From the IMG/VR virus record IMGVR_UViG_2734482565_000006: a stretch of DNA of 38,835 nt; one strand, 5' to 3'. The notes beneath the pieces are model-generated. The model saw nothing but the letters and a program-made list of their open reading frames with translations, was not told the origin of the DNA and did not search any database. The DNA comes from a virus. Its lineage: Duplodnaviria > Heunggongvirae > Uroviricota > Caudoviricetes. The stretch's first letter is position 1, and each line of letters starts with the position of its first letter. Of the stretch, positions 2,548 to 38,523 are shown one piece after another. Both the position numbers and the translations under genes were made by a program.

Positions 2548-4602
2548 TTACGCGTTATTCACTTCCACCACGATACTGTCAATCAGTACCGGGTAAGTCG
2601 CATTTTTAGTGATATCGGTCACGCGCAACTTGTCTGCCGTAAACGTGCCGACCGGAGACTGCGACAGCATGAATGGTGTCCCGTCCTTACCATCAATGAC
2701 CGGCGTCACCTCAATACTGTTGTTACCGGCAAAACGGAAGCCCAGCGTATGCCATTCGTTATTAAATGCGCCGAATGACCCCAGCTTCGTGTTCTGCGCC
2801 GTGTTTCCTTTGTGATACATCACGTTAAGGTCTGTGGCATCGCTCTGTACGTAGAACGATGCCAGCAGGTTATGACCGGCATTTCCTTCCAGAGTAACCC
2901 CTTGCGGCAGGGCAGAAACCGGCCAGTACAGCGCCAGTGCGTACTGATTAGCCGTAAGCGCGCCATCGAGTTTAAAACGACAACTGACAAGACCACCTTT
3001 ACCCAGCAGGTCCGCACCATTACCAGCATCATGCTCAAGGTACCAGGGGGCTCTTCCTGTTTCCTTGGTCAGTTTCATTGCCTTACCCCCGCTGGCTCCG
3101 GCATCATCCACGATTTGAGCCTTGCCACCTCCGGCAGCCCAACCCTGTGGTGTCAACCGTCCTTCAGACTCAGATGCCCGGTAAGCAAATAGCGTACTCA
3201 TCGTCGTGGTGTCTGCGGGTGGCGTGGACGGTTTTGATGGTGTATCAGGTGACGGCTTCTCATCCGGTGGTGTCACGGTCTGCCCACGCATCAGTTCAGC
3301 CGTGCGCCCTGCATGGAGCATAATAGCTGAGGCCAGACGGTCTGAAATGACGCCCCTGCGTGCCCATGAGCTGAAATGGCTGTCACGCTGTGTCGAAACA
3401 AAACTGCCCTGGGTTCGGGATGCTGCACCGTAATACCCGACAGCCACAATATCCGGGTCTTCCGCCGGAGCATTCGTTGGCGTGCTCTGTCCATTCTCAT
3501 CCGTCAGGAACGGTACAAAGAAAATTTTCTGTGCTTCCTTGCCTTTGTAGCCACCGTATACTGCCTCATATTTATCGGTGCCAGCGTTTTTCCAGTAATA
3601 CGTGGTATCACCGCAAATCCACGGCACCGTGGTGGCATTTCCACTCACGCACTGCGCAGCAAGCGGAGCCAGGTCAGTTCTGAACTGCTGAACCATGGCC
3701 GTGAATAAACTATTATGCTGCTGGCTTCCTGAGGCAAGGTCTGCCTCTCCCTGCATCCAGACCACAGCCAGAAGTTTGTTTTTCGGGTTTTTCGCCAGCG
3801 CGACTTTGGTGCGGCTTACCAGGTCCTGATACAGAGGTTTACCGGCCCCCCAGCGTGAAGAATCAGCGGAAGCACCGCTGGCCTCACTGAATGAGCCGTC
3901 GGCTCCAGTGGTGAATGCTGACCCGCCACGACAACAGGGCACCAGAAGTATCCCGGCATTCTGTGGGATATAGGGAAGCAGTTTTTTGGCAATATGCAAC
4001 CCCTGACCGACAGTCCCGTACTGGCCTTTTGCCAGATCAGCTTTCGGGTGGTTTATCCCGCTCATATCCTGAACATCATGCAGGCAGTGGTCTGCCGGAA
4101 TGATGTCGTTGTATGTACACGACGTACCGTTGGGCGTTACCGTACTGCGGCGTGCCAGTTGCTTAATGCGTGGGTCCGGGCGGTCAAACGAATCCGGTAA
4201 CGGCAGCCCCTCGCCGTAGGCCATGCCATTTGACTGACCCGCGAGAATGACAACAAAGTAATATTCCGGCTCTGAACTGCTGCCATTCGTGCTACCGGAA
4301 GGCCCGGCGTTATCCGGTGCATTCCAGTCGGAGGGCGTGAGCGTTCCGGCCACGTCAGATGTGATTGGAATGATGCCAGTCACGCCTGAACTGGTGATTT
4401 CTGCACTGGGATTACCGGATACCGGCATTACCCATAATGGCTCTTTCGTGCTGAAGCGGATCACGCAGTCTGCGAAGGTGATCCCCCCTTTATTACCCGA
4501 AGGGCGGAAAGGGCTTTCAATAAATGCCACCGTGCCACCGGCAACCTTGACTGAAAACTCTCCGGGCATGGCGGAGAGCATTTTCCACTTGGAGTCTGAC
4601 AT
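2548..4602 (-). CDS. SGNH-hydrolase / sialate-O-acetylesterase-like protein (prophage NanS-p-like) with C-terminal putative carbohydrate-binding domain
   Basis: 684 aa. A central block YFVVILAGQSNGMAYGEG ... VVWMQGEAD resembles the GQSN and QGE(A/S) motifs of SASA/DUF303 esterases. It sits as cargo between gin and com-mom; the SD is weak. Confidence 0.65.
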   Translation of the reverse strand: MSDSKWKMLSAMPGEFSVKVAGGTVAFIESPFRPSGNKGGITFADCVIRFSTKEPLWVMPVSGNPSAEITSSGVTGIIPITSDVAGTLTPSDWNAPDNAGPSGSTNGSSSEPEYYFVVILAGQSNGMAYGEGLPLPDSFDRPDPRIKQLARRSTVTPNGTSCTYNDIIPADHCLHDVQDMSGINHPKADLAKGQYGTVGQGLHIAKKLLPYIPQNAGILLVPCCRGGSAFTTGADGSFSEASGASADSSRWGAGKPLYQDLVSRTKVALAKNPKNKLLAVVWMQGEADLASGSQQHNSLFTAMVQQFRTDLAPLAAQCVSGNATTVPWICGDTTYYWKNAGTDKYEAVYGGYKGKEAQKIFFVPFLTDENGQSTPTNAPAEDPDIVAVGYYGAASRTQGSFVSTQRDSHFSSWARRGVISDRLASAIMLHAGRTAELMRGQTVTPPDEKPSPDTPSKPSTPPADTTTMSTLFAYRASESEGRLTPQGWAAGGGKAQIVDDAGASGGKAMKLTKETGRAPWYLEHDAGNGADLLGKGGLVSCRFKLDGALTANQYALALYWPVSALPQGVTLEGNAGHNLLASFYVQSDATDLNVMYHKGNTAQNTKLGSFGAFNNEWHTLGFRFAGNNSIEVTPVIDGKDGTPFMLSQSPVGTFTADKLRVTDITKNATYPVLIDSIVVEVNNA

Positions 4603-4687: not shown

Positions 4688-5260
4688 TCACGGTACTTTT
4701 GGTGACGGAGCTGGTGAGGCAGGAAAATAACGATAAAGGGTGGAAAGGCCAATATCAAATATCAGTGCGATTTGTTTACGGGACTCGCCATTAGCCAGCA
4801 AACGGGCGATTTGCTCCCGCTCTTTCTCTGTCAGTTTCTGAGGTCTGCCGCCATGACGCCCCTGAGCACGGGCAGCAGCAAGACCCGCGCGTGTACGTTC
4901 AATAATGAGTTCCCGCTCCATTTCCGCCAGCGCGCCCATTATATGGAAAAAGAAACGTCCCATGGGAGTGGATGTATCAATATTGTCCGTAATGCTGCGG
5001 AAGTTAACGCCGCGTTGCCGGAGTTCTTCTGTTAAAAGGACAAGGTGCTGCATACTGCGTCCAAGGCGATCCAGTTTCCAGACCAGCAGGGTATCCCCTG
5101 GCCGGAGTCGCTTTAATGCGCGTTTAAGTCCGGGACGCTCCCTTGTCTTACCGCTTATTCTGTCTTCGAAAAACAGCTCACATCCTGCACATTCCAGCGC
5201 ATTTCTTTGTAGCGCCGTATTCTGGTCATTTGTTGACACCCTGATATACCCAATCAGCAT
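4688..5260 (-). CDS. gin: serine DNA invertase Gin
   Basis: MLIGYIRVSTNDQ... is a resolvase/invertase N-terminal catalytic motif; 190 aa; C-terminal HTH; adjacent to an inverted-repeat-bounded tail-fibre segment. Confidence 0.95.
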   Translation of the reverse strand: MLIGYIRVSTNDQNTALQRNALECAGCELFFEDRISGKTRERPGLKRALKRLRPGDTLLVWKLDRLGRSMQHLVLLTEELRQRGVNFRSITDNIDTSTPMGRFFFHIMGALAEMERELIIERTRAGLAAARAQGRHGGRPQKLTEKEREQIARLLANGESRKQIALIFDIGLSTLYRYFPASPAPSPKVP

Positions 5261-31379: not shown

Positions 31380-31895
31380 TCACCCCCTGACTCGCTTTTC
31401 AGCAGCATAAAACTCATCAGACAGTATTTCGGTCATTTTCTGTTTTGCGGGTTTTACGCCGCACTGAAGGTAAATCACATCGTCAACGCAGAACCACTTC
31501 ACAGGGCCAAACAGGATTGCCGAGAAATCAATACCCAACCAGAACAACAGCGCATCGGTTCTGGCATACGTGACGGGCGAATATTCACGCCACAGACTGT
31601 TCAGTTCATCAGAGGCAACACGCAGGGTTTTAGGGATACGTGATGTGCGCGGTGTGCAGCTCCAGCCATTCGACGCAGTCGGTTTTCGCCATAAGTCGCG
31701 ATGAAAAGGATATTTGTCCTCCGTAAAACGCAGTCCCTTAAAGTAAAATCCACTGATACCGGATACAAATACCGACCGGCACGCAACATTCAGCACGGCC
31801 TCAAGGCGTTTTGCCTCATCCTTAACTTTCTGGCAGTCCTGCTGGTATTTTTGCCACGCAGCCAGCGCGGAAGGGTTTGATGTTTTAAAGAACAT
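31380..31895 (-). CDS. hypothetical protein
   Basis: 171-aa ORF with an ATGA-type overlap with the upstream gene. Confidence 0.5.
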   Translation of the reverse strand: MFFKTSNPSALAAWQKYQQDCQKVKDEAKRLEAVLNVACRSVFVSGISGFYFKGLRFTEDKYPFHRDLWRKPTASNGWSCTPRTSRIPKTLRVASDELNSLWREYSPVTYARTDALLFWLGIDFSAILFGPVKWFCVDDVIYLQCGVKPAKQKMTEILSDEFYAAEKRVRG

Positions 31896-32428
31896 TACGC
31901 CACCTCCGCAGATATCCCGGCAGGCGCTGCTGTCCGGTCAACAATCAGGTAGCGCAGAACATGTTCAGTGATATTCCAGCCGCTTAAACCGCAGATAATG
32001 ACGCCCAGGCGTATGTCGATATACGCCATCACAAACTGGGGCACGCCTTCTTTCATGGCCTGCTCATCAACTTCAGCCACCACATAAACGGTTTCACAGG
32101 TCAGAACGCCCTGAGCAAATTCCCACGCCATCGACGGAATATCATGCCCCTCAATCCATGGCAGGGATTTTCTGAAGCCGCACCACTGAACATCATCAGC
32201 CGCAGATTCCTGGCTGCATTTGCGACGAACCGGCTGCACCGGGCGGGGACGCGGAATATCATAAAAACCGTTACATTCCGTCAGCACGCCTGCATCAACC
32301 GCATCACGCAGAAAATAAACCATGGAGGATGGCGGCATATTCATTTTTTCAGCCAGTACACCGCAGGTCAGGCGGCCATAAATACACAGCCAGTTTTTAA
32401 CCCCTTCAAGCACTTTTGCATCAATCAT
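31895..32428 (-). CDS. hypothetical protein
   Basis: 177-aa ORF downstream of gam. Confidence 0.5.
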   Translation of the reverse strand: MIDAKVLEGVKNWLCIYGRLTCGVLAEKMNMPPSSMVYFLRDAVDAGVLTECNGFYDIPRPRPVQPVRRKCSQESAADDVQWCGFRKSLPWIEGHDIPSMAWEFAQGVLTCETVYVVAEVDEQAMKEGVPQFVMAYIDIRLGVIICGLSGWNITEHVLRYLIVDRTAAPAGISAEVA

Positions 32429-32573
32429 GATTTATTTCCCCACCACATTATTAATGACGATATAAACGTATTTCATATTTCTTAACCCTTATTTTCTGTT
32501 TTCAGGCGCAAGCAGTCCCCTGACGCGAGCGCCATAATTAAAATGAAGTGATATTTAATTGATTAATGCGGTG

Positions 32574-33104
32574 TTATTTATTCAGTCCGGCGTCCTGTTC
32601 AAAAGGCTCGACATAAAAACTTTCAGCGCCTTTATTCACCTTGATACCGGCAATGCCTTTCACAGCATCCGGCTCCGCCAGGACGGCTTCCTTGTTCACT
32701 TCCTCTTTCGTGCGGATGAAACGCTCAAGCCCCATACGGCGCAGCATTTCAATCACACCTTCCACATCACGGCTGACGCTGCATGATGGCGTTCCCAGCC
32801 GCCATGACACCGTTCCGGTGGTCAGATTGGCTGTTTTGGTTTTGCCGCCGTTCGTCAGCTCATCACGGTTGGTTTTGCACCAGTCCTGAATCCCTTTAAA
32901 AAGCACTTTGATTTGCTTTTTAAGATTTTCAATCTGCGGCGTATAACGGGCGGTGATTTCTGCCACTTCGTCATTCATCGCCGTTTCCAGGCGCAGCGCC
33001 TCTCGCTGAATATCTCCCAGGGTGCGGATATCACGGCTGACTTCTTCCCGGGTCTGCGGTGCCGCCTCGGCTGCGGCCTTTAATTTTGTAACGCGTTTAG
33101 CCAT
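32574..33104 (-). CDS. gam: host-nuclease inhibitor Gam
   Basis: 176 aa; blocks LRLETAMNDEVAEIT, NRDELTNGGKTKTANLTTGTVSWR and ERFIRTKEEVNKEA match the Mu Gam family pattern. Confidence 0.9.
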   Translation of the reverse strand: MAKRVTKLKAAAEAAPQTREEVSRDIRTLGDIQREALRLETAMNDEVAEITARYTPQIENLKKQIKVLFKGIQDWCKTNRDELTNGGKTKTANLTTGTVSWRLGTPSCSVSRDVEGVIEMLRRMGLERFIRTKEEVNKEAVLAEPDAVKGIAGIKVNKGAESFYVEPFEQDAGLNK

Positions 33105-33115
33105 TTTGTTTTTCC

Positions 33116-33409
33116 TTATTGCAGTGTGCCTGATGCTTTATGCACGCGGTGGCGTTTAATGATGGCATCCGCTCCAAAAGACTGTGCAGATGCCTGAAAT
33201 TCCGCTGAGAGAAACTGAATAATTGCAGGACTGTGATACTGGAGAATACTTGCATAAACGTCACAGAGTGACGTCGGCCTGTTATCCGTATCACGTTCTG
33301 TTTTCACATCCACTCCAATCTTTTCATGCACTTCAACACAGTCATTGCCTGCCAACTTTTCGTCATGCGAAACATGATTAAATTCAAAAATAACGCGTAC
33401 TTTGCTCAT
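33116..33409 (-). CDS. hypothetical protein, tandem paralogue B
   Basis: Start taken at MSKVRVIFEFNH...; shares its N-terminal motif with the adjacent upstream ORF. Confidence 0.5.
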   Translation of the reverse strand: MSKVRVIFEFNHVSHDEKLAGNDCVEVHEKIGVDVKTERDTDNRPTSLCDVYASILQYHSPAIIQFLSAEFQASAQSFGADAIIKRHRVHKASGTLQ

Positions 33410-33413
33410 GGAA

Positions 33414-33686
33414 TTACCCCTGTTGATTAAATTCATTACCGTTAATAACCCCGGAAGCCATGCCTCTGTCTTTCATGAATGCACTGGCTTTCATTGCCAC
33501 AAACTCTGCGAAGTTTCTGCTTTCTGCCAGCATAACCACCCCAAAAATCATGGCGGGTCCATTATCTTTCTTCTTTATTCCGGTTGAACGTATATCCAGA
33601 CTTACCCCTCTGTGCGTGCTGCCATCAGAGTTTTTGCAGATAACATCTTCCTTGTATTCGAAAATAATGCGTACGACTTTACTCAT
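33414..33686 (-). CDS. hypothetical protein, tandem paralogue A
   Basis: MSKVVRIIFEYKEDV...; same N-terminal signature as 33116..33409; AT-rich. Confidence 0.5.
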   Translation of the reverse strand: MSKVVRIIFEYKEDVICKNSDGSTHRGVSLDIRSTGIKKKDNGPAMIFGVVMLAESRNFAEFVAMKASAFMKDRGMASGVINGNEFNQQG

Positions 33687-33964
33687 CCTCTGGTCCTCGT
33701 TCTGTTTGGATAACTGACCCGGCGTCTAACCTCACGGCAGAACCGAATCATGGCATTAAAGGCTTCTTCCTCCGTCACCGCTTCCGGTATCCCCGGAACC
33801 AGTAACTGCTCCTGTTCATCACGTCCATGACGCGCCATAACCTCAATCACATGCCGTACCGTGGCAGGCTTTCCGGCAACTATCGGCAATGCACCTTCCG
33901 GCAGGACGTAACCAAACTCAATAAGACCACTCGACCACGCCCATGCAATGAGATTTTTTTTCAC
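33683..33964 (-). CDS. hypothetical protein
   Basis: 93-aa ORF with a 4-bp overlap with its downstream neighbour. Confidence 0.45.
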   Translation of the reverse strand: MKKNLIAWAWSSGLIEFGYVLPEGALPIVAGKPATVRHVIEVMARHGRDEQEQLLVPGIPEAVTEEEAFNAMIRFCREVRRRVSYPNRTRTRG

Positions 33965-33965
33965 C

Positions 33966-34232
33966 TCACACCTCCCAGTAAACCGTGCAGCCGCTGATGC
34001 GGGTGGCCTTCACACGGCGGCGCAGGCCGTTGGTCTGTATGGTGATTTCAATTTCACCGGTTCCCTGCACGTTGCCTACCGGCGGCGTGGTTTTCAGTGC
34101 AAAACGTTGCGGATAGCGCTTACTGCGTTCCAGTACCGCACCGGCAAGTTCGGTCAGACGGCGCGCGCTGTTCAGGGAGTCGAATAAATTCATTTTGTTA
34201 CCGCAGGATTGCATATTCATATAACACCTCAT
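33966..34232 (-). CDS. hypothetical protein
   Basis: 88-aa ORF; start uncertain (several in-frame Met near the N-terminus). Confidence 0.4.
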   Translation of the reverse strand: MRCYMNMQSCGNKMNLFDSLNSARRLTELAGAVLERSKRYPQRFALKTTPPVGNVQGTGEIEITIQTNGLRRRVKATRISGCTVYWEV

Positions 34233-34460
34233 TTAGCTGACTTGTTTCGCACCAACAGAACGGCATATTCCGCTGTAAACTTCTGTCGCACCTTCGCGAT
34301 CAAGTCCGGCAGATATCACCATTCGTGTGCGGTCATTAAATTCAAAAAGTAAATCGCCACATTCTTTATTTTCGGCCAGTGAAATCACCTTCACGTTATC
34401 GAAATTAACCAGGTAAAAGCGTCCGTAAATATCAGGAATATTAAATACCGCCATAATCAC
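34233..34460 (-). CDS. hypothetical protein
   Basis: 75-aa ORF immediately downstream of B with a 4-bp overlap. Confidence 0.45.
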   Translation of the reverse strand: MIMAVFNIPDIYGRFYLVNFDNVKVISLAENKECGDLLFEFNDRTRMVISAGLDREGATEVYSGICRSVGAKQVS

Positions 34461-35398
34461 ACCTGTGAGAGTAATTCAGGGTTGGTATAAACCTCTTTAA
34501 AGGCCGCATTAATATGTTTTTCTGTCAGCGCCGCGCCTTCACCGCTGGCGGTGAGCCACGCCTGGTTAAGCGTATGTGTCAGAACGCGTAACGCTCCCGG
34601 CTTTTCAGCGATAGCCTGCATGACGGCCAGCTCGGCCTCACCACTGATCCCCCACGCCATGGCAATGGCCAGCACATCCGCCTTTTTGGCCTTGCGAAGT
34701 TGTTTTGTACGGGCAAGACGGCTGAACAGGCGCGATAAATCATCAAAGGCGCGGCGTCCACCTTTAAACAATCCGCGCGGGTTACCAATAAGCACCATCC
34801 CGATCCCCGTGGCGTCCTGAATTGCCCGGAGTTGCTCCAGACCGTCAATACCAAGATGATCCGCCTCATCCACAATCACCAGTCCACGCGTTCCCATCAG
34901 GCGACGGCGGATGGCGCGGGATAATGCCCCTTTGTTCGCGCGGGTGTAATCAATCCCCAGCGCATCGGCCAGCTCCAGCAGACACTCCGTGACGCTGGAG
35001 TGCGCGGGTGACAGGGTGATCATCCAGGTGTTTGGTTGCTCCTGGCAGTAATTACGGGCAGTGGCCGTTTTACCCACACCCGGTACGCCCACAATAACGT
35101 TAATACAGCCCATCAGGCGAACCGCCTGAAACAGTGCGCGCAGCTCCTGGACTGTCTGAGTTTCCACAAACTGCGGCGGTTCCGGCAGTGCGCTTTGTTT
35201 ATTCCAGTTCTCATACCAGGAGCGCAGGGAAGCAGCCACAGCAGCGTTATCGCCTTTATATTTTCCCTTACGGAAAGCCGATAATGTGCCGTCGGAAATT
35301 CCCGCCTCTCTGGCGATGGCATACTGCGTCAGTACGCCGCCATCAATAAGTTCATCAATGGTCTTGATTACATCGTTAATATCGGTCATATTATTCAC
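34457..35398 (-). CDS. B: transposition protein B (AAA+ ATPase target-DNA activator)
   Basis: 313 aa; Walker A VGVPGVGKT, Walker B-like LVIVDEADHL; N-terminal HTH; immediately downstream of the transposase. Confidence 0.9.
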   Translation of the reverse strand: MNNMTDINDVIKTIDELIDGGVLTQYAIAREAGISDGTLSAFRKGKYKGDNAAVAASLRSWYENWNKQSALPEPPQFVETQTVQELRALFQAVRLMGCINVIVGVPGVGKTATARNYCQEQPNTWMITLSPAHSSVTECLLELADALGIDYTRANKGALSRAIRRRLMGTRGLVIVDEADHLGIDGLEQLRAIQDATGIGMVLIGNPRGLFKGGRRAFDDLSRLFSRLARTKQLRKAKKADVLAIAMAWGISGEAELAVMQAIAEKPGALRVLTHTLNQAWLTASGEGAALTEKHINAAFKEVYTNPELLSQV

Positions 35399-35471
35399 CT
35401 CGCTTGAGACAGCATTCTCCGAGACTGAAACCTCAAATAACCTGAGTCACCCCTCGGGTTATTTTTTTATT

Positions 35472-37559
35472 TCAGGCCAGCGGATCACTTTCTTTTAATT
35501 TCGCTTCGAGCAGTTGCAATCCCCGCTGGAAATTACGCTCGTATTCTTCATCAGGTTCATCGTCAGCGACCGGTTGCTGAACGGTCACCGTATTACCCAC
35601 AGGGCGGTATATGTTTTCCAGCCAGGGCTCCTGCGGCTTGTGCTCCAGCACGTTGACAACCTCATCCTCGGCATCACGGATTTTTTCCTCTGCGCGTTTA
35701 CGCATGCCTTTAAGGCGCTGCTGCTGTTTGTAGTATTCCGCGCTGACAGGGAAGGCTTCGCGTTTATTGCCGTCCCATACCGCCTCGCAAATCACGCTGC
35801 CATCCGGGCGGCGCACGGTAATTCGTTCGGCATCATGAATGTCATAGCTGATAAGTACCTTACGGCCATGCTCGTCACGCAGCTCGGGCGCGTAGTAAAT
35901 ATTATTCAGCCAGCGTATTTCACAGCGTCTTACAGGGCGCTCCACCATCGGCCGGAACATATCCCGCAGTTCAACATCGGACAGCCATTCAATTTCCGTG
36001 TCCTCTTCCGCCAGGCGTTTTTTTCTGAACTCCGCCGGGCTGTAATGTTTACCGTTCGGCTTCATGGGTAATTCATCGTGCGGCCGGTTGTTGTACCACT
36101 CAACACCGTCACGAATGGCATCAATCAGTTCAGACCAGGACGGTAAATCACGCATCGCTGACTGCTGCCGGGCGTTCAGCCGTTTGCCCTGTTGCAGGGC
36201 ACTGAATGCCGAGCGTAAATCGCGGTTGGTTTTACGTAACGTCTCGCGATCTGCTCCTTTCCCGAAATAGGTGCGGTATTTACGGGCTATGCGCATCGGT
36301 AATGTGCGGTTAAGCCGTTCGATAATGCCCCGTCCCTGCGGATTACCGGCAATCCCTGTCGGGTGATTAATCCCCAGTCGTGGCAGTATCCCCACAATCT
36401 CCTTATCCAGGACGTCGGCGGTTTCCCCGGAGCCATTATCCGAGTAATACAGAAACGGTTTGCCATGATGGCGAATACCGTGCTGTATGGCACCGGCTAC
36501 GGCGAAAACATTTTCAGCCAGGTCAAGGCTCCAGCCCACCACAAAGCGCGTGCCACCGTCGATAACAAAGGTCACTTCCGGTGCGAATGGCCGCCCGTGA
36601 ACCGGGTGCGCGCATTTCAGCTTCATGCCGTGACCGTCACCAATCCAGACATAATTCACCGGCATTCTGGACCAGTCGCGGCGCGTGAATCCCTCAAGCT
36701 GACGGTATTCACTGCCAGTTACCCGGCCTTTTTGTTTCACCACTTCCGGCAGTTTCTTCATTGCGCGGCGAATGGTGTCATAAGAGGGCATGATATCGAG
36801 CATATAAGGCTCATCAGCGTGCCGGTGCTGCCATTCAGCAACAAAATCCTCGTAAGCCTCGGTCATTGGTCGGCCGTTTGACTGGCGATACTGCGCCAGA
36901 AATTCGGGCAGCCAGTTAATATCTTCGGCTTTTATTTCCTGGCGTTTACCCGGTGCCAGTAAAAGCAGGCGTTCAGCGGCGTTCTGTGCCTTGTTAAAGG
37001 CCGCAATCCAGCGTTTCAGCGTGATTTCACTCAACGCGCGGCTGTTTCCCTTTTTGGCGTTCGCCGTCTCAACCATTGCCACAATGCGCTCGTCCAGTTG
37101 TGATCGTGCCAGGCTGTTAACGAGGAACCGGATAGCTTTAGCGCAGCTGAAACCGGGTTGTTGCGTGAATTTCAGCACCTCACTGACGATCGCAATGCGT
37201 GCGTCTGCCACCTGGCGCTGGTTTTCAGTCAGGGCATTGAGGCGTTCGACCATCAGTTGTGGTGATCCGCGATATGCCTCCACCGCATCAACCACGGCAG
37301 ACGAGCGTCTGGCCTTTGTCACCACCGGAGCCGGTGATTCATCGGCTTTTTGCGTCATCAGTTGCAGGGCATAACGTTCGCGTAATGCCTGCTGTGTCAC
37401 TTCAGGTAAACAGTCAATGCTGTATTCAAAACCTTTAGCGCCTTTCTTGCGGCGTCTGCTGGTTTCGCTGGTTGCATACTTCCTGATTGAATAGCGAACG
37501 CCTTGCTCCGTTCCCGGCATCCCCGGTAATCCAACCAGTTCTTTAACTGAAGCAAACAT
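35472..37559 (-). CDS. A: DDE transposase A (MuA-like)
   Basis: 695 aa; N-terminal Mu-type DNA-binding domain (LVGLPGMPGTEQGVRYSIRK...KKGAKGFEYSIDCLPE); follows ner by 3 bp. Confidence 0.95.
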   Translation of the reverse strand: MFASVKELVGLPGMPGTEQGVRYSIRKYATSETSRRRKKGAKGFEYSIDCLPEVTQQALRERYALQLMTQKADESPAPVVTKARRSSAVVDAVEAYRGSPQLMVERLNALTENQRQVADARIAIVSEVLKFTQQPGFSCAKAIRFLVNSLARSQLDERIVAMVETANAKKGNSRALSEITLKRWIAAFNKAQNAAERLLLLAPGKRQEIKAEDINWLPEFLAQYRQSNGRPMTEAYEDFVAEWQHRHADEPYMLDIMPSYDTIRRAMKKLPEVVKQKGRVTGSEYRQLEGFTRRDWSRMPVNYVWIGDGHGMKLKCAHPVHGRPFAPEVTFVIDGGTRFVVGWSLDLAENVFAVAGAIQHGIRHHGKPFLYYSDNGSGETADVLDKEIVGILPRLGINHPTGIAGNPQGRGIIERLNRTLPMRIARKYRTYFGKGADRETLRKTNRDLRSAFSALQQGKRLNARQQSAMRDLPSWSELIDAIRDGVEWYNNRPHDELPMKPNGKHYSPAEFRKKRLAEEDTEIEWLSDVELRDMFRPMVERPVRRCEIRWLNNIYYAPELRDEHGRKVLISYDIHDAERITVRRPDGSVICEAVWDGNKREAFPVSAEYYKQQQRLKGMRKRAEEKIRDAEDEVVNVLEHKPQEPWLENIYRPVGNTVTVQQPVADDEPDEEYERNFQRGLQLLEAKLKESDPLA

Positions 37560-37977: not shown

Positions 37978-38523
37978 ATGAACAAGCAAACAACAACATC
38001 TCTTTCTTTTCCTGGTGGTAGAAAAGAAAGCATTGCTGAGCGTCTGAAAAGGCTGATTGGCTCCCGCAGCGTCAGAGCTGCAGCAAGAGATTGGGGGCTT
38101 TCATTTTCAACACTAAACAATTATCTGTCTCGTGGCACTGAGCCATCCTTAAGTGTCGCCCTTCAGATTGCGTCTATCGAAGGAGTAAGTGTTGAGTGGC
38201 TATGTGGATTCAGTGATGCATCACAAGTGAATCGGTGTGAGATCAAGGAAAATCAAGATGAAAGCAAGAAGATAATTATGACGATTATCAGCGCACTTGA
38301 TGAAAAAGACTTAGAGCAGCTATCGAAAAATTTGGTTCTGAATGGAGCCAAGTACTTAGCTCGGTTGTTAGAGCCTGAAAATCAAGATCTAATCCGCTTA
38401 GAAGGAAGGAAAAGAATAGCTGCATTACAGCTTGAAGGTATGTCTGACGAACGCGTCAGAGAGATTTTGGAAGAAACTGAGAGAAGTCGCAAATCTAACG
38501 CGGTAGAACCAAAAGCGGGTTAA
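37978..38523 (+). CDS. prophage repressor (XRE/CI-type HTH, no peptidase domain)
   Basis: 181 aa, divergent from ner-A-B next to attL. N-terminal RDWGLSFSTLNNYLSRGTEPSLSVALQIASIEGVSVEWL has an XRE-family HTH pattern; it lacks the MuA-like motif. Confidence 0.65.
   Translation: MNKQTTTSLSFPGGRKESIAERLKRLIGSRSVRAAARDWGLSFSTLNNYLSRGTEPSLSVALQIASIEGVSVEWLCGFSDASQVNRCEIKENQDESKKIIMTIISALDEKDLEQLSKNLVLNGAKYLARLLEPENQDLIRLEGRKRIAALQLEGMSDERVREILEETERSRKSNAVEPKAG

What the first reader, a model, noticed from the sequence alone, without database searches (positions are those of the whole stretch)
33116..33686. Tandem paralogous small genes in the early region downstream of B
Two adjacent about 90-aa proteins share an N-terminal signature (MSKVxxIFE[YF]) but diverge afterwards, and lie in an AT-rich patch. 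Tandem diverged paralogues in a phage early region are typical of host-takeover or anti-defence genes under diversifying selection. Function is unknown.
Basis: inference. Interest (0 to 1): 0.45.

Follow-up and report, generated by a model that had tools for sequence, protein, structure and literature searches.

The report
Tandem Gnarl2-like Mu early genes
Two neighbouring small genes in the early operon of a Mu-like E. coli prophage are very diverged copies of the phage Mu gene E6 (Gnarl2), a small protein reported to alter the bacterial O-antigen coat, so they are probably host-surface-modifying accessory genes, not novel machinery.

Summary
On the minus strand, 33414-33686 (90 aa, "w_90") and 33116-33409 (97 aa, "w_97") are adjacent, translationally coupled genes between MuB/Kil and Gam. 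They share MSKV(V)R[VI]IFE[YF] and have 43% GC against 54% for the window.

They are true paralogues over about 76-80 residues, not only at the N-terminus. A profile built without w_90 finds it at E=1.3e-8, and hhalign gives 94.5% probability. Both models show a beta-hairpin followed by a long helix.

With intermediates from other Enterobacterales prophages, they join one family with phage Mu gp7/E6/Mup07 (hhalign 96-97%), at the same operon position. All other lineages examined carry one copy.

Mup07 is "gnarl2" (Silas et al., Nat Commun 2025). Its expression shifts the O-antigen ladder and sensitises wild E. coli to T5. Its target is unknown.

Gene-wide diversifying selection is not supported (dN/dS 0.29 and 0.32, no segment above 1). 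The pair is nonetheless a sharply bounded hypervariable island. Each gene has two deep allele classes, found in all four combinations, inside an otherwise 93-100% identical operon.

No Pfam, NCBIfam, PDB or fold match exists. The function is inferred by remote homology only.

The parts
33414..33686 (-). w_90: 90-aa CDS, the upstream copy, a Gnarl2/Mu-gp7 superfamily member (PHROG phrog_4107)
   Evidence: ORF and translation. phrog_4107 E=1.7e-54. RefSeq CDS WP_000049428. Leave-one-out HMM E=1.3e-8. AF2 model: strands 7-12 and 29-34, helix 42-73, pLDDT 54.
33116..33409 (-). w_97: 97-aa CDS, the downstream copy, a Gnarl2/Mu-gp7 superfamily member (PHROG phrog_2230)
   Evidence: ORF. phrog_2230 E=1.8e-38. 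RefSeq CDS WP_000049310. Leave-one-out HMM E=2e-12. AF2 model: hairpin 4-21/24-39 plus helix 48-77, pLDDT 73.
33654..33686 (-). Codons 1-11 of w_90 (MSKVVRIIFEY): the shared N-terminal strand motif
   Evidence: Sequence. A 19-nt direct repeat, 33656-33674 against 33382-33400, is 89% identical. Codons 1-10 are nucleotide-identical between deep allele classes.
33380..33409 (-). Codons 1-10 of w_97 (MSKVRVIFEF): the shared N-terminal strand motif
   Evidence: Sequence, repeat D2, no synonymous or non-synonymous change between allele classes.
33694..33698 (-). GAGGA ribosome-binding site of w_90, 7 nt before the ATG. The w_90 ATG overlaps the TGA of the upstream 93-aa gene (ATGA, 33683-33686).
   Evidence: Read from the sequence.
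33417..33421 (-). AGGGG ribosome-binding site of w_97, lying inside the last codons of w_90. Only 4 nt separate the w_90 stop codon from the w_97 start codon.
   Evidence: Read from the sequence.
33101..33700 (.). Hypervariable island, bounded almost exactly by the two genes
   Evidence: Window against L049 in 100-bp bins: 63-91% identity inside, 93-100% in the flanks from 32501 to 35400. The two-gene 601-bp query is mostly 90-95% identical in E. coli genomes, whereas the 3-kb region is mostly 95-99%.
33683..33964 (-). Upstream neighbour: 93-aa gene (phrog_1518), used here as the synteny anchor
32574..33104 (-). Downstream neighbour: Gam (Pfam Phage_Mu_Gam E=5.5e-42). Its AAGGA RBS overlaps the w_97 stop codon.

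Best explanation
The locus holds two tandem, deeply diverged paralogues of the phage Mu gp7/E6/Mup07 ('Gnarl2') family.

Shown: both are small (90 and 97 aa), soluble, non-enzymatic proteins. Both are predicted to have a beta-hairpin followed by a long (or two-part) helix. They are co-transcribed and translationally coupled in the Pe early operon, between Kil and Gam. Every other lineage examined (Mu, Citrobacter, Edwardsiella, an uncultured Enterobacteriaceae genome, IMG/VR contigs) carries one copy in the same B-to-gam interval. The window's E. coli lineage, which includes O157:H7 Sakai prophage Sp18, carries two.

Inferred from the one characterised member: like Gnarl2, they act as stand-alone binders of a host factor and perturb O-antigen/LPS biogenesis. 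This remodels the cell surface once early genes are expressed. The likely benefit is exclusion of superinfecting phages, or less re-adsorption of progeny to debris.

Inferred from variation: the conserved N-terminal strand and central helices form the scaffold. The variable hairpin and C-terminal tail carry target specificity. Two copies, plus freely re-assorting deep alleles, would widen or retune the range of host variants that can be hit.
For: Paralogy:
- BLASTP E=6e-4.
- Leave-one-subfamily-out HMMs recover w_90 at 1.3e-8 and w_97 at 2e-12, over about 80 residues.
- hhalign of the w_97 group against the w_90 family gives 94.5% probability, E=7.5e-8, 75 columns.
- Both AF2 models show the same beta-beta-alpha topology.

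Link to Mu gp7:
- Mu gp7 hits w_97's PHROG (phrog_2230) over its full length at E=0.009.
- hhalign of {Mu gp7 + P0105 + L010} against the w_97 group gives 96.0% (E=4e-9, 72 columns). Against the w_97 and w_90 groups together it gives 96.8% (E=2.2e-10).
- The gp7-only HMM finds the bridging P0105-type protein at 1.2e-5. The expanded gp7 HMM ranks w_90 (2.2e-3) and w_97 (1.3e-2) above every unrelated ORF.

Synteny: members always lie between B/kil and gam or its DUF3164-like substitute, one per phage.

Function of the homologue: NP_050611.1 (NC_000929 4784..5047) is orf63/gnarl2. Its expression downshifts O-antigen bands and raises T5 plating 1e5-1e6-fold in ECOR1 and ECOR22. Transposon hits in O-antigen genes phenocopy this (PMC12373910).

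Accessory character:
- Only 18 cluster representatives at E<=1e-3 among 1.84 billion proteins.
- Members are found only in Enterobacterales and not detected in the beta-proteobacterial (and two Desulfovibrio/unclassified) loci that keep the 93-aa neighbour.
- The island is hypervariable and AT-rich.
- Allele classes occur in all four combinations.

Soluble: maximum Kyte-Doolittle 19-residue mean is 0.88-1.17, so no transmembrane segment.
Against: - Identity to Gnarl2 is only 13-18%. The link needs intermediates. Direct family-to-family hhalign without them was not significant.
- Function can drift at this distance. w_90 is basic (pI 9.25), whereas gp7 (5.6) and w_97 (6.3) are acidic.
- Gnarl2's own mechanism is unknown. 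Its LPS shift is described as 'subtle', from a single gel, and AP-MS gave no target.
- The w_90 model is low-confidence (pLDDT 54), and the MSAs are shallow.
- No structural analogue was found.
- Co-resident Mu-like prophages in one strain can carry different allele classes (TOE17, STEC2018-553). This argues against a simple match between allele class and host O-serotype.
Confidence: 0.5

Rival explanations
1. They are intracellular anti-defence inhibitors that bind a host immune or nuclease protein (a restriction, abortive-infection or RecBCD-type target) and do not act on the LPS pathway.
For: They are early-expressed, sit immediately upstream of the end-protecting Gam protein, and form an AT-rich hypervariable island with re-assorting alleles. 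The Gnarl2 target is unproven.
Against: The only characterised homologue's effect did not correlate with any specific immune system, and it was phenocopied by O-antigen and capsule gene disruption. The proteins are not strongly acidic DNA mimics (pI 6.3 and 9.25). Pfam and NCBIfam scans at E up to 1-10 returned no family of any kind for either protein.
Confidence: 0.2
2. They serve the phage's own transposition, replication or regulation, for example one of the old genetically defined Mu early functions such as arm or sot, by binding DNA or MuA/MuB.
For: They are co-transcribed with A, B and Gam. An N-terminal beta-strand followed by helices loosely recalls ribbon-helix-helix proteins.
Against: - The family was not detected in any Mu-like locus outside Enterobacterales that still keeps the 93-aa neighbour.
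- It is extremely narrow in distribution.
- It diverges far faster than A, B or Gam.
- No RHH or other DNA-binding Pfam family was hit.
- The Mu semi-essential region is described as largely of unknown, dispensable function (PMC3820752).
Confidence: 0.1
3. The two gene products work only together, as an obligate heterodimer or a toxin/antidote-like pair. The shared N-terminal strand would be the dimer interface.
For: The pair is retained together in at least 226 of 232 E. coli genomes that have any match. It is translationally coupled. The N-terminal strand of w_97 resembles that of w_90 more than that of its own closest relatives, the P0101 group.
Against: Every other lineage manages with one copy. 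Allele classes of the two genes re-assort freely, which is unexpected for co-evolving partners. The two are homologous to each other and show no toxin or antitoxin domain.
Confidence: 0.08
4. The resemblance is confined to about 10 N-terminal residues and reflects chance, a shared translation-initiation or recombination junction, or local gene conversion. On this view the genes are unrelated.
For: Identity outside the first 14 alignment columns is only 8-14%. The first hhalign runs aligned only 24-44 N-terminal columns. Codons 1-10 are frozen even at synonymous sites between alleles.
Against: Leave-one-out profiles and the expanded hhalign align 75-80 columns with E from 1e-7 to 1e-12. Both proteins have the same predicted secondary-structure order. 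Nucleotide identity of the motif (25/30) is no higher than the amino-acid identity predicts.
Confidence: 0.05

Closest known systems
Gnarl2 = phage Mu gp7 / E6 / Mup07 (NP_050611.1; Silas et al., Nat Commun 2025;16:7828, PMC12373910)
   Same: Same superfamily by profile-profile comparison (96-97% probability). Same size class (87 against 90 and 97 aa). Same position in the Mu-type early operon between B/kil and gam. Same pattern of conserved elements across the family alignment: N-terminal strand, second strand, hydrophobic helix with an invariant Ser. Only w_90 and w_97 were modelled. No catalytic domain.
   Different: Only 13-18% identical. PHROGs splits the three into separate families: 10252, 2230 and 4107. 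There are two copies here against one in Mu. They lie after the 93-aa gene, which Mu lacks. w_90 is basic. They lack the C-terminal His seen in gp7 and several other subfamilies. No phenotype has been tested for these genes.
Gnarl1 and Gnarl3 (small O-antigen-modifying accessory proteins of lytic phages; Gnarl3 binds GalU)
   Same: The proposed mode of action: a small stand-alone protein that binds a host envelope-biosynthesis factor.
   Different: They are named for a shared phenotype. They come from different phages and different protein families ('phamily' labels). Sequence relatedness to the window's genes was not tested here.
Single-copy 93-97-aa genes of Citrobacter-type Mu-like prophages (P0101, P0102 and P0104; L004-L009)
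   Same: Closest relatives of w_97 (27-32% identity, MSNKVQVIFTFE...). In the L004-L009 loci they sit in the same slot directly after the 93-aa gene.
   Different: Single copy. Followed by a 205-212-aa non-Gam protein. Uncharacterised.
Classical seroconversion modules of temperate phages (glycosyltransferases or acetyltransferases; D3 iap)
   Same: The proposed outcome: O-antigen alteration by a prophage.
   Different: Those are enzymes or membrane proteins. These are 10-kDa soluble proteins with no enzymatic domain.

Membership tests
Mu gp7/E6 (Gnarl2) family | Detectable sequence homology to Mu gp7 (NP_050611.1) | tested here: met
   hhalign with intermediates gives 96.0-96.8% probability, E from 4e-9 to 2e-10, over 72-73 columns. 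Mu gp7 against phrog_2230 gives E=0.009. The expanded gp7 HMM gives w_90 at 2.2e-3 and w_97 at 1.3e-2 as the top non-self hits. Without intermediates the comparison is not significant, so the relationship is remote.
Mu gp7/E6 (Gnarl2) family | Small (about 40-100 aa) stand-alone protein with no enzymatic or membrane domain | tested here: met
   90 and 97 aa. No Pfam, NCBIfam or PDB sequence hit. No transmembrane-grade hydrophobic window.
Mu gp7/E6 (Gnarl2) family | Encoded in the early (semi-essential) operon of a transposable Mu-like phage, between B/kil and gam | tested here: met
   Gene order in the window, Mu, L003, L004, L010 and L017.
Mu gp7/E6 (Gnarl2) family | Expression alters the O-antigen LPS ladder and sensitises O-antigen-positive E. 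coli to T5 | not testable with these tools
   Wet-lab phenotype, reported only for Mu gp7 itself.
Tandem paralogues (w_90 and w_97 homologous to each other) | Homology beyond the shared N-terminal motif | tested here: met
   Leave-one-out HMM: w_90 residues 1-79 at E=1.3e-8, w_97 at E=2e-12. hhalign over 75 columns, 94.5%.
Genes under diversifying (positive) selection | dN/dS above 1, gene-wide or in a segment | tested here: not met
   Nei-Gojobori on 7 E. coli prophages gives 0.29 and 0.32. The highest segment value is 0.53. Site models were not run.
DNA-mimic anti-restriction proteins (Ocr/ArdA type) | Strongly acidic protein with homology to known mimics | tested here: not met
   pI 6.3 and 9.25. 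No family hits.
Type II toxin-antitoxin pair | Two different small proteins, one with a toxin fold, always paired | tested here: not met
   The two are homologous to each other and single-copy in other phages. The only hit is a chance-level VapB_antitoxin match, E=0.13, on a relative.

The most novel reading that the evidence does not exclude
The pair is a modular 'specificity cassette' for enzyme-free seroconversion. The invariant N-terminal strand and central helices would form a scaffold. The hypervariable hairpin and tail would recognise different variants of a polymorphic host O-antigen assembly component, such as Wzy, Wzz or WaaL. The nucleotide-frozen first 10 codons of each gene would act as recombination junctions that let Mu-like prophages of STEC and other E. 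coli swap specificities. A prophage would thereby carry two independently exchangeable surface-remodelling effectors.
Probability: 0.12. Interest if true: 0.65.

Novelty: new member of a known kind. Interest (0 to 1): 0.4.

Why it matters
These two proteins are annotated only as 'hypothetical' in more than 200 complete E. coli genomes, including O157:H7 Sakai prophage Sp18. Protein-family resources split them, and Mu gp7, into unrelated groups.

Joining them to Gnarl2 has three consequences:
- It gives an immediately testable function.
- It enlarges a family whose mechanism is unknown from one tested protein to several very divergent subfamilies.
- It points to which parts are scaffold (N-terminal strand, central helices) and which are variable (hairpin, tail).

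That information is useful for finding the still-unknown Gnarl2 target. If the proteins do remodel O-antigen, Mu-like prophages of STEC could influence serotype-dependent phage susceptibility.

Tried and rejected
- Direct database annotation gave nothing. Pfam, NCBIfam and PDB-sequence searches (single proteins and profile) found no family. PHROGs gave only 'unknown function'.
- tblastn against 50,697 phage records found only two Stx phages with an inserted Mu-like element. It did not find Mu itself.
- Word-indexed protein searches returned essentially E. coli only.
- The exhaustive HMMER search returned 18 representatives. Three of these (P0099, P0103, P0106) are 710-1996-aa proteins matched in 5-13 short stretches. 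I treated them as spurious without inspecting them.
- The first family-to-family hhalign runs against Mu gp7 were not significant. They became significant only after adding bridging sequences.
- I considered gene conversion as the cause of the shared motif. Nucleotide identity of the motif (25/30) is what the amino-acid identity predicts, so there is no positive evidence for it.
- I considered internal promoters or terminators. Consensus matches are at chance level, and none lies on the minus strand between B and gam.
- I considered plus-strand ORFs in the interval (33460-33717 and others). They are antisense shadows, unannotated, and minus-frame dN/dS below 1 supports the minus-strand genes.
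- I did not attempt to correlate allele class with serotype. The set is dominated by clonal O157:H7.

Full report
**Context**

The window is a nearly complete Mu-like transposable prophage of E. coli, read on the minus strand. The gene order is as follows:

| Feature | Coordinates | Note |
|---|---|---|
| c-type repressor | 37978-38523 (+) | |
| MuA | 35472-37559 | |
| MuB | 34457-35398 | |
| 75-aa gene | 34233-34460 | |
| Kil-like gene | 33966-34232 | |
| 93-aa gene | 33683-33964 | phrog_1518 |
| w_90 and w_97 | 33414-33686, 33116-33409 | the genes of the finding |
| Gam | 32574-33104 | Pfam Phage_Mu_Gam 5.5e-42, 57% identical to Mu Gam |
| gp11- and gp12-like genes | 31895-32428, 31380-31895 | |
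| Further genes | — | GemA, Mor, lysozyme, late genes, gin-like invertase, Mom |

Identical or near-identical copies occur in 233 of 5426 complete E. coli genomes, including O157:H7 Sakai prophage Sp18. Phage Mu itself is too diverged for DNA matching.

**The observation**

w_90 (33414-33686, 90 aa) and w_97 (33116-33409, 97 aa) are intact minus-strand genes. RefSeq annotates both as hypothetical proteins.

They are tightly packed:
- The w_90 ATG overlaps the stop of the 93-aa gene (ATGA).
- Four nucleotides separate the w_90 stop from the w_97 start, and the w_97 AGGGG RBS lies inside w_90.
- Gam's RBS overlaps the w_97 stop.
- No minus-strand promoter- or terminator-like site interrupts the B-to-gam stretch.

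The N-termini read MSKVVRIIFEY and MSKV-RVIFEF. GC is 43.3%, against 53.7% for the window. The description is therefore accurate.

**Are they paralogues?**

Pairwise evidence is weak: BLASTP gives 22% identity and E=6e-4. Outside the N-terminal strand, identity is 8-14%. Early profile comparisons aligned only 24-44 N-terminal columns.

I enlarged the families in four ways:
- Two single-protein searches plus one mixed-profile search of the 5.8-billion-protein set.
- An exhaustive HMMER scan of 1.84 billion representatives. It returned only 18 hits, among them P0101, P0102 and P0104 (MSNKVQVIFTFE...) and P0105 (MAKVTIEFK...).
- IMG/VR loci.
- 38 genome loci anchored on the conserved 93-aa neighbour.

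Local HMM scans of all ORFs in these loci added members from Citrobacter braakii, Edwardsiella anguillarum and an uncultured Enterobacteriaceae genome. No hits appeared in the beta-proteobacterial loci.

With this diversity the relationship becomes clear:
- A profile lacking the whole w_90 subfamily recovers w_90 at E=1.3e-8 over residues 1-79.
- A profile lacking w_97 recovers it at E=2e-12. The value is 8.9e-7 when its closest relatives are also removed.
- hhalign gives 94.5% probability over 75 columns.
- AF2 models built from separate alignments give the same order of elements. w_97 has hairpin 4-21/24-39 and helix 48-77 (pLDDT 73). w_90 has strands 7-12 and 29-34 and helix 42-73 (pLDDT 54).

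The two proteins are therefore homologous along most of their length.

w_97 groups with the single-copy gene that occupies the same slot in Citrobacter-type prophages (27-32% identity). w_90 is roughly equidistant from all subfamilies. The pair is therefore an old duplication or an acquisition of a second family member, not a recent tandem copy.

**Link to phage Mu**

Mu has four genes between kil and gam: gp6 to gp9.

Mu gp7 (87 aa, MAKVIIEIKN..., formerly E6) shows the same pattern as the window's genes:
- an N-terminal strand;
- a second strand;
- an acidic loop;
- a hydrophobic helix;
- an invariant Ser;
- a second helix.

The quantitative evidence is:
- Mu gp7 hits w_97's PHROG over its full length at E=0.009.
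- The gp7-only HMM finds the P0105-type protein at 1.2e-5.
- The profile {gp7 + P0105 + L010} matches the w_97 group at 96.0% (E=4e-9), and the combined w_97 and w_90 groups at 96.8% (E=2.2e-10).

In every phage examined the family member lies between B/kil and gam (or a 205-212-aa substitute), one copy per phage. Only the window's E. coli lineage has two.

**What the family does**

A literature search for the locus tag found that Mup07/E6 (NP_050611.1, NC_000929 4784..5047) is orf63 = gnarl2 of Silas et al. (bioRxiv 2023.04.06.535777; Nat Commun 2025;16:7828).

The reported results are:
- Expressed in wild E. coli ECOR1 and ECOR22, it caused a subtle downshift of O-antigen bands.
- It raised T5 infection 1e5-1e6-fold.
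- Transposon disruption of O-antigen genes phenocopied this.
- AP-MS gave no clear target.

The authors propose enzyme-free seroconversion that could exclude superinfecting phages or prevent re-adsorption. No other paper in the library characterises it.

The proteins here are soluble (no transmembrane-grade segment). Their pI values are 6.3 and 9.25. They have no Pfam, NCBIfam, PDB-sequence or fold match.

My best explanation follows from this. They are Gnarl2-like small binders of a host envelope-biogenesis factor, expressed with the early operon. This step is inference from remote homology.

**Selection and variation**

I compared seven E. coli prophages.

| Gene | dN/dS |
|---|---|
| w_90 | 0.29 |
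| w_97 | 0.32 |
| B | 0.20 |
| orf75 | 0.19 |
| kil | 0.21 |
| 93-aa gene | 0.13 |
| gam | 0.05 |
| gp11-like | 0.10 |

No segment of w_90 or w_97 exceeds 0.53. Gene-wide positive selection is therefore not supported.

The two genes nevertheless form a sharply bounded divergence island. Identity is 63-91% inside, against 93-100% in the flanks.

Each gene has two deep allele classes: about 81% protein identity for w_90 and about 58% for w_97. dS between classes reaches 1.2. All four combinations occur, in prophages whose Gam is 95-100% identical and whose MuB is at least 99% identical in six of the seven.

Changes concentrate in the hairpin and the C-terminal tail. The N-terminal strand and central helices are conserved. 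The first 10 codons are identical even at synonymous sites.

Class A of w_97 is found in about 185 genomes and class B in 32. Some strains carry two Mu-like prophages with different classes.

**Verdict**

The genes are new, very divergent members, in a two-copy arrangement, of the Mu gp7/E6 (Gnarl2) family. Membership rests on profile homology, synteny and shared predicted topology. The phenotype is untested.

Noticed in passing
window 2548-4602 (-): A 684-aa gene lies between the gin-like invertase (4688-5260) and Mom (322-1254). It has a SASA carbohydrate/sialate acetylesterase domain (1.5e-13) plus DUF6645 (7.4e-68). From my own knowledge, Mu has only com and mom after gin, so this would be extra cargo, possibly a surface-polysaccharide-modifying or receptor-destroying enzyme. 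It is relevant to the claim that gnarl-carrying phages lack seroconverting enzymes.
   Followed up: no
window 32429-32573; L047-L052 about 936-1489: Related E. coli prophages carry an extra 543-579-bp gene (hypothetical, or DUF5420 in one) between gam and the gp11-like gene. The window has only a 145-bp AT-rich gap there.
   Followed up: no
window 33380-33409 and 33657-33686: The first 10 codons of both genes show zero synonymous or non-synonymous differences between deep allele classes, while the rest of each gene has dS of 0.35-1.2. This may mark recombination junctions or a constraint on translation initiation.
   Followed up: partly
protein P0022 (E. coli contig, 67 aa): A natural chimera: residues 1-49 of w_90 are fused at an 'FG' to the last 18 residues of w_97. 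This amounts to a deletion joining the two paralogues.
   Followed up: no
family alignment; L002:4784-5047, L004:4001-4294, L003:3489-3746, L017:2850-3152: Several subfamilies end in a C-terminal His: Mu gp7 ...CH, P0101 ...NIH, P0105 ...SKH, Edwardsiella ...QAH. The possible 65-aa relatives do too. w_90 and w_97 do not. Unexplained.
   Followed up: no
L035:1228-1425, L031:372-608, L023:926-1186: Short proteins (65 aa in L035; ORFs of 78-86 aa in L031 and L023) in Symbiopectobacterium, Lonsdalea and Dickeya Mu-like loci begin MAKVVITITD.../MAKIVICVRD... in the two whose sequences were read (L035, L031). They score marginally (best E 0.003 for L035, 0.18 for L023 and 0.86 for L031) against the family HMMs. 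They may be truncated remote members.
   Followed up: partly
window 33683-33964 (-): The 93-aa neighbour (phrog_1518, labelled 'host nuclease inhibitor' in PHROGs) is conserved from Enterobacterales to many beta-proteobacterial Mu-like prophages (36-55% identity). It has no Pfam family, and its function appears untested.
   Followed up: no
window 34233-34460 (-): The 75-aa gene directly after B is a second AT-rich (41.7% GC) small gene of unknown function (phrog_3375). It has dN/dS 0.19 and elevated dS (0.22).
   Followed up: no
E. coli TOE17 (NZ_CP069093) and STEC2018-553 (NZ_CP075665): Single strains carry two or three Mu-like prophages with different w_97 allele classes.
   Followed up: no
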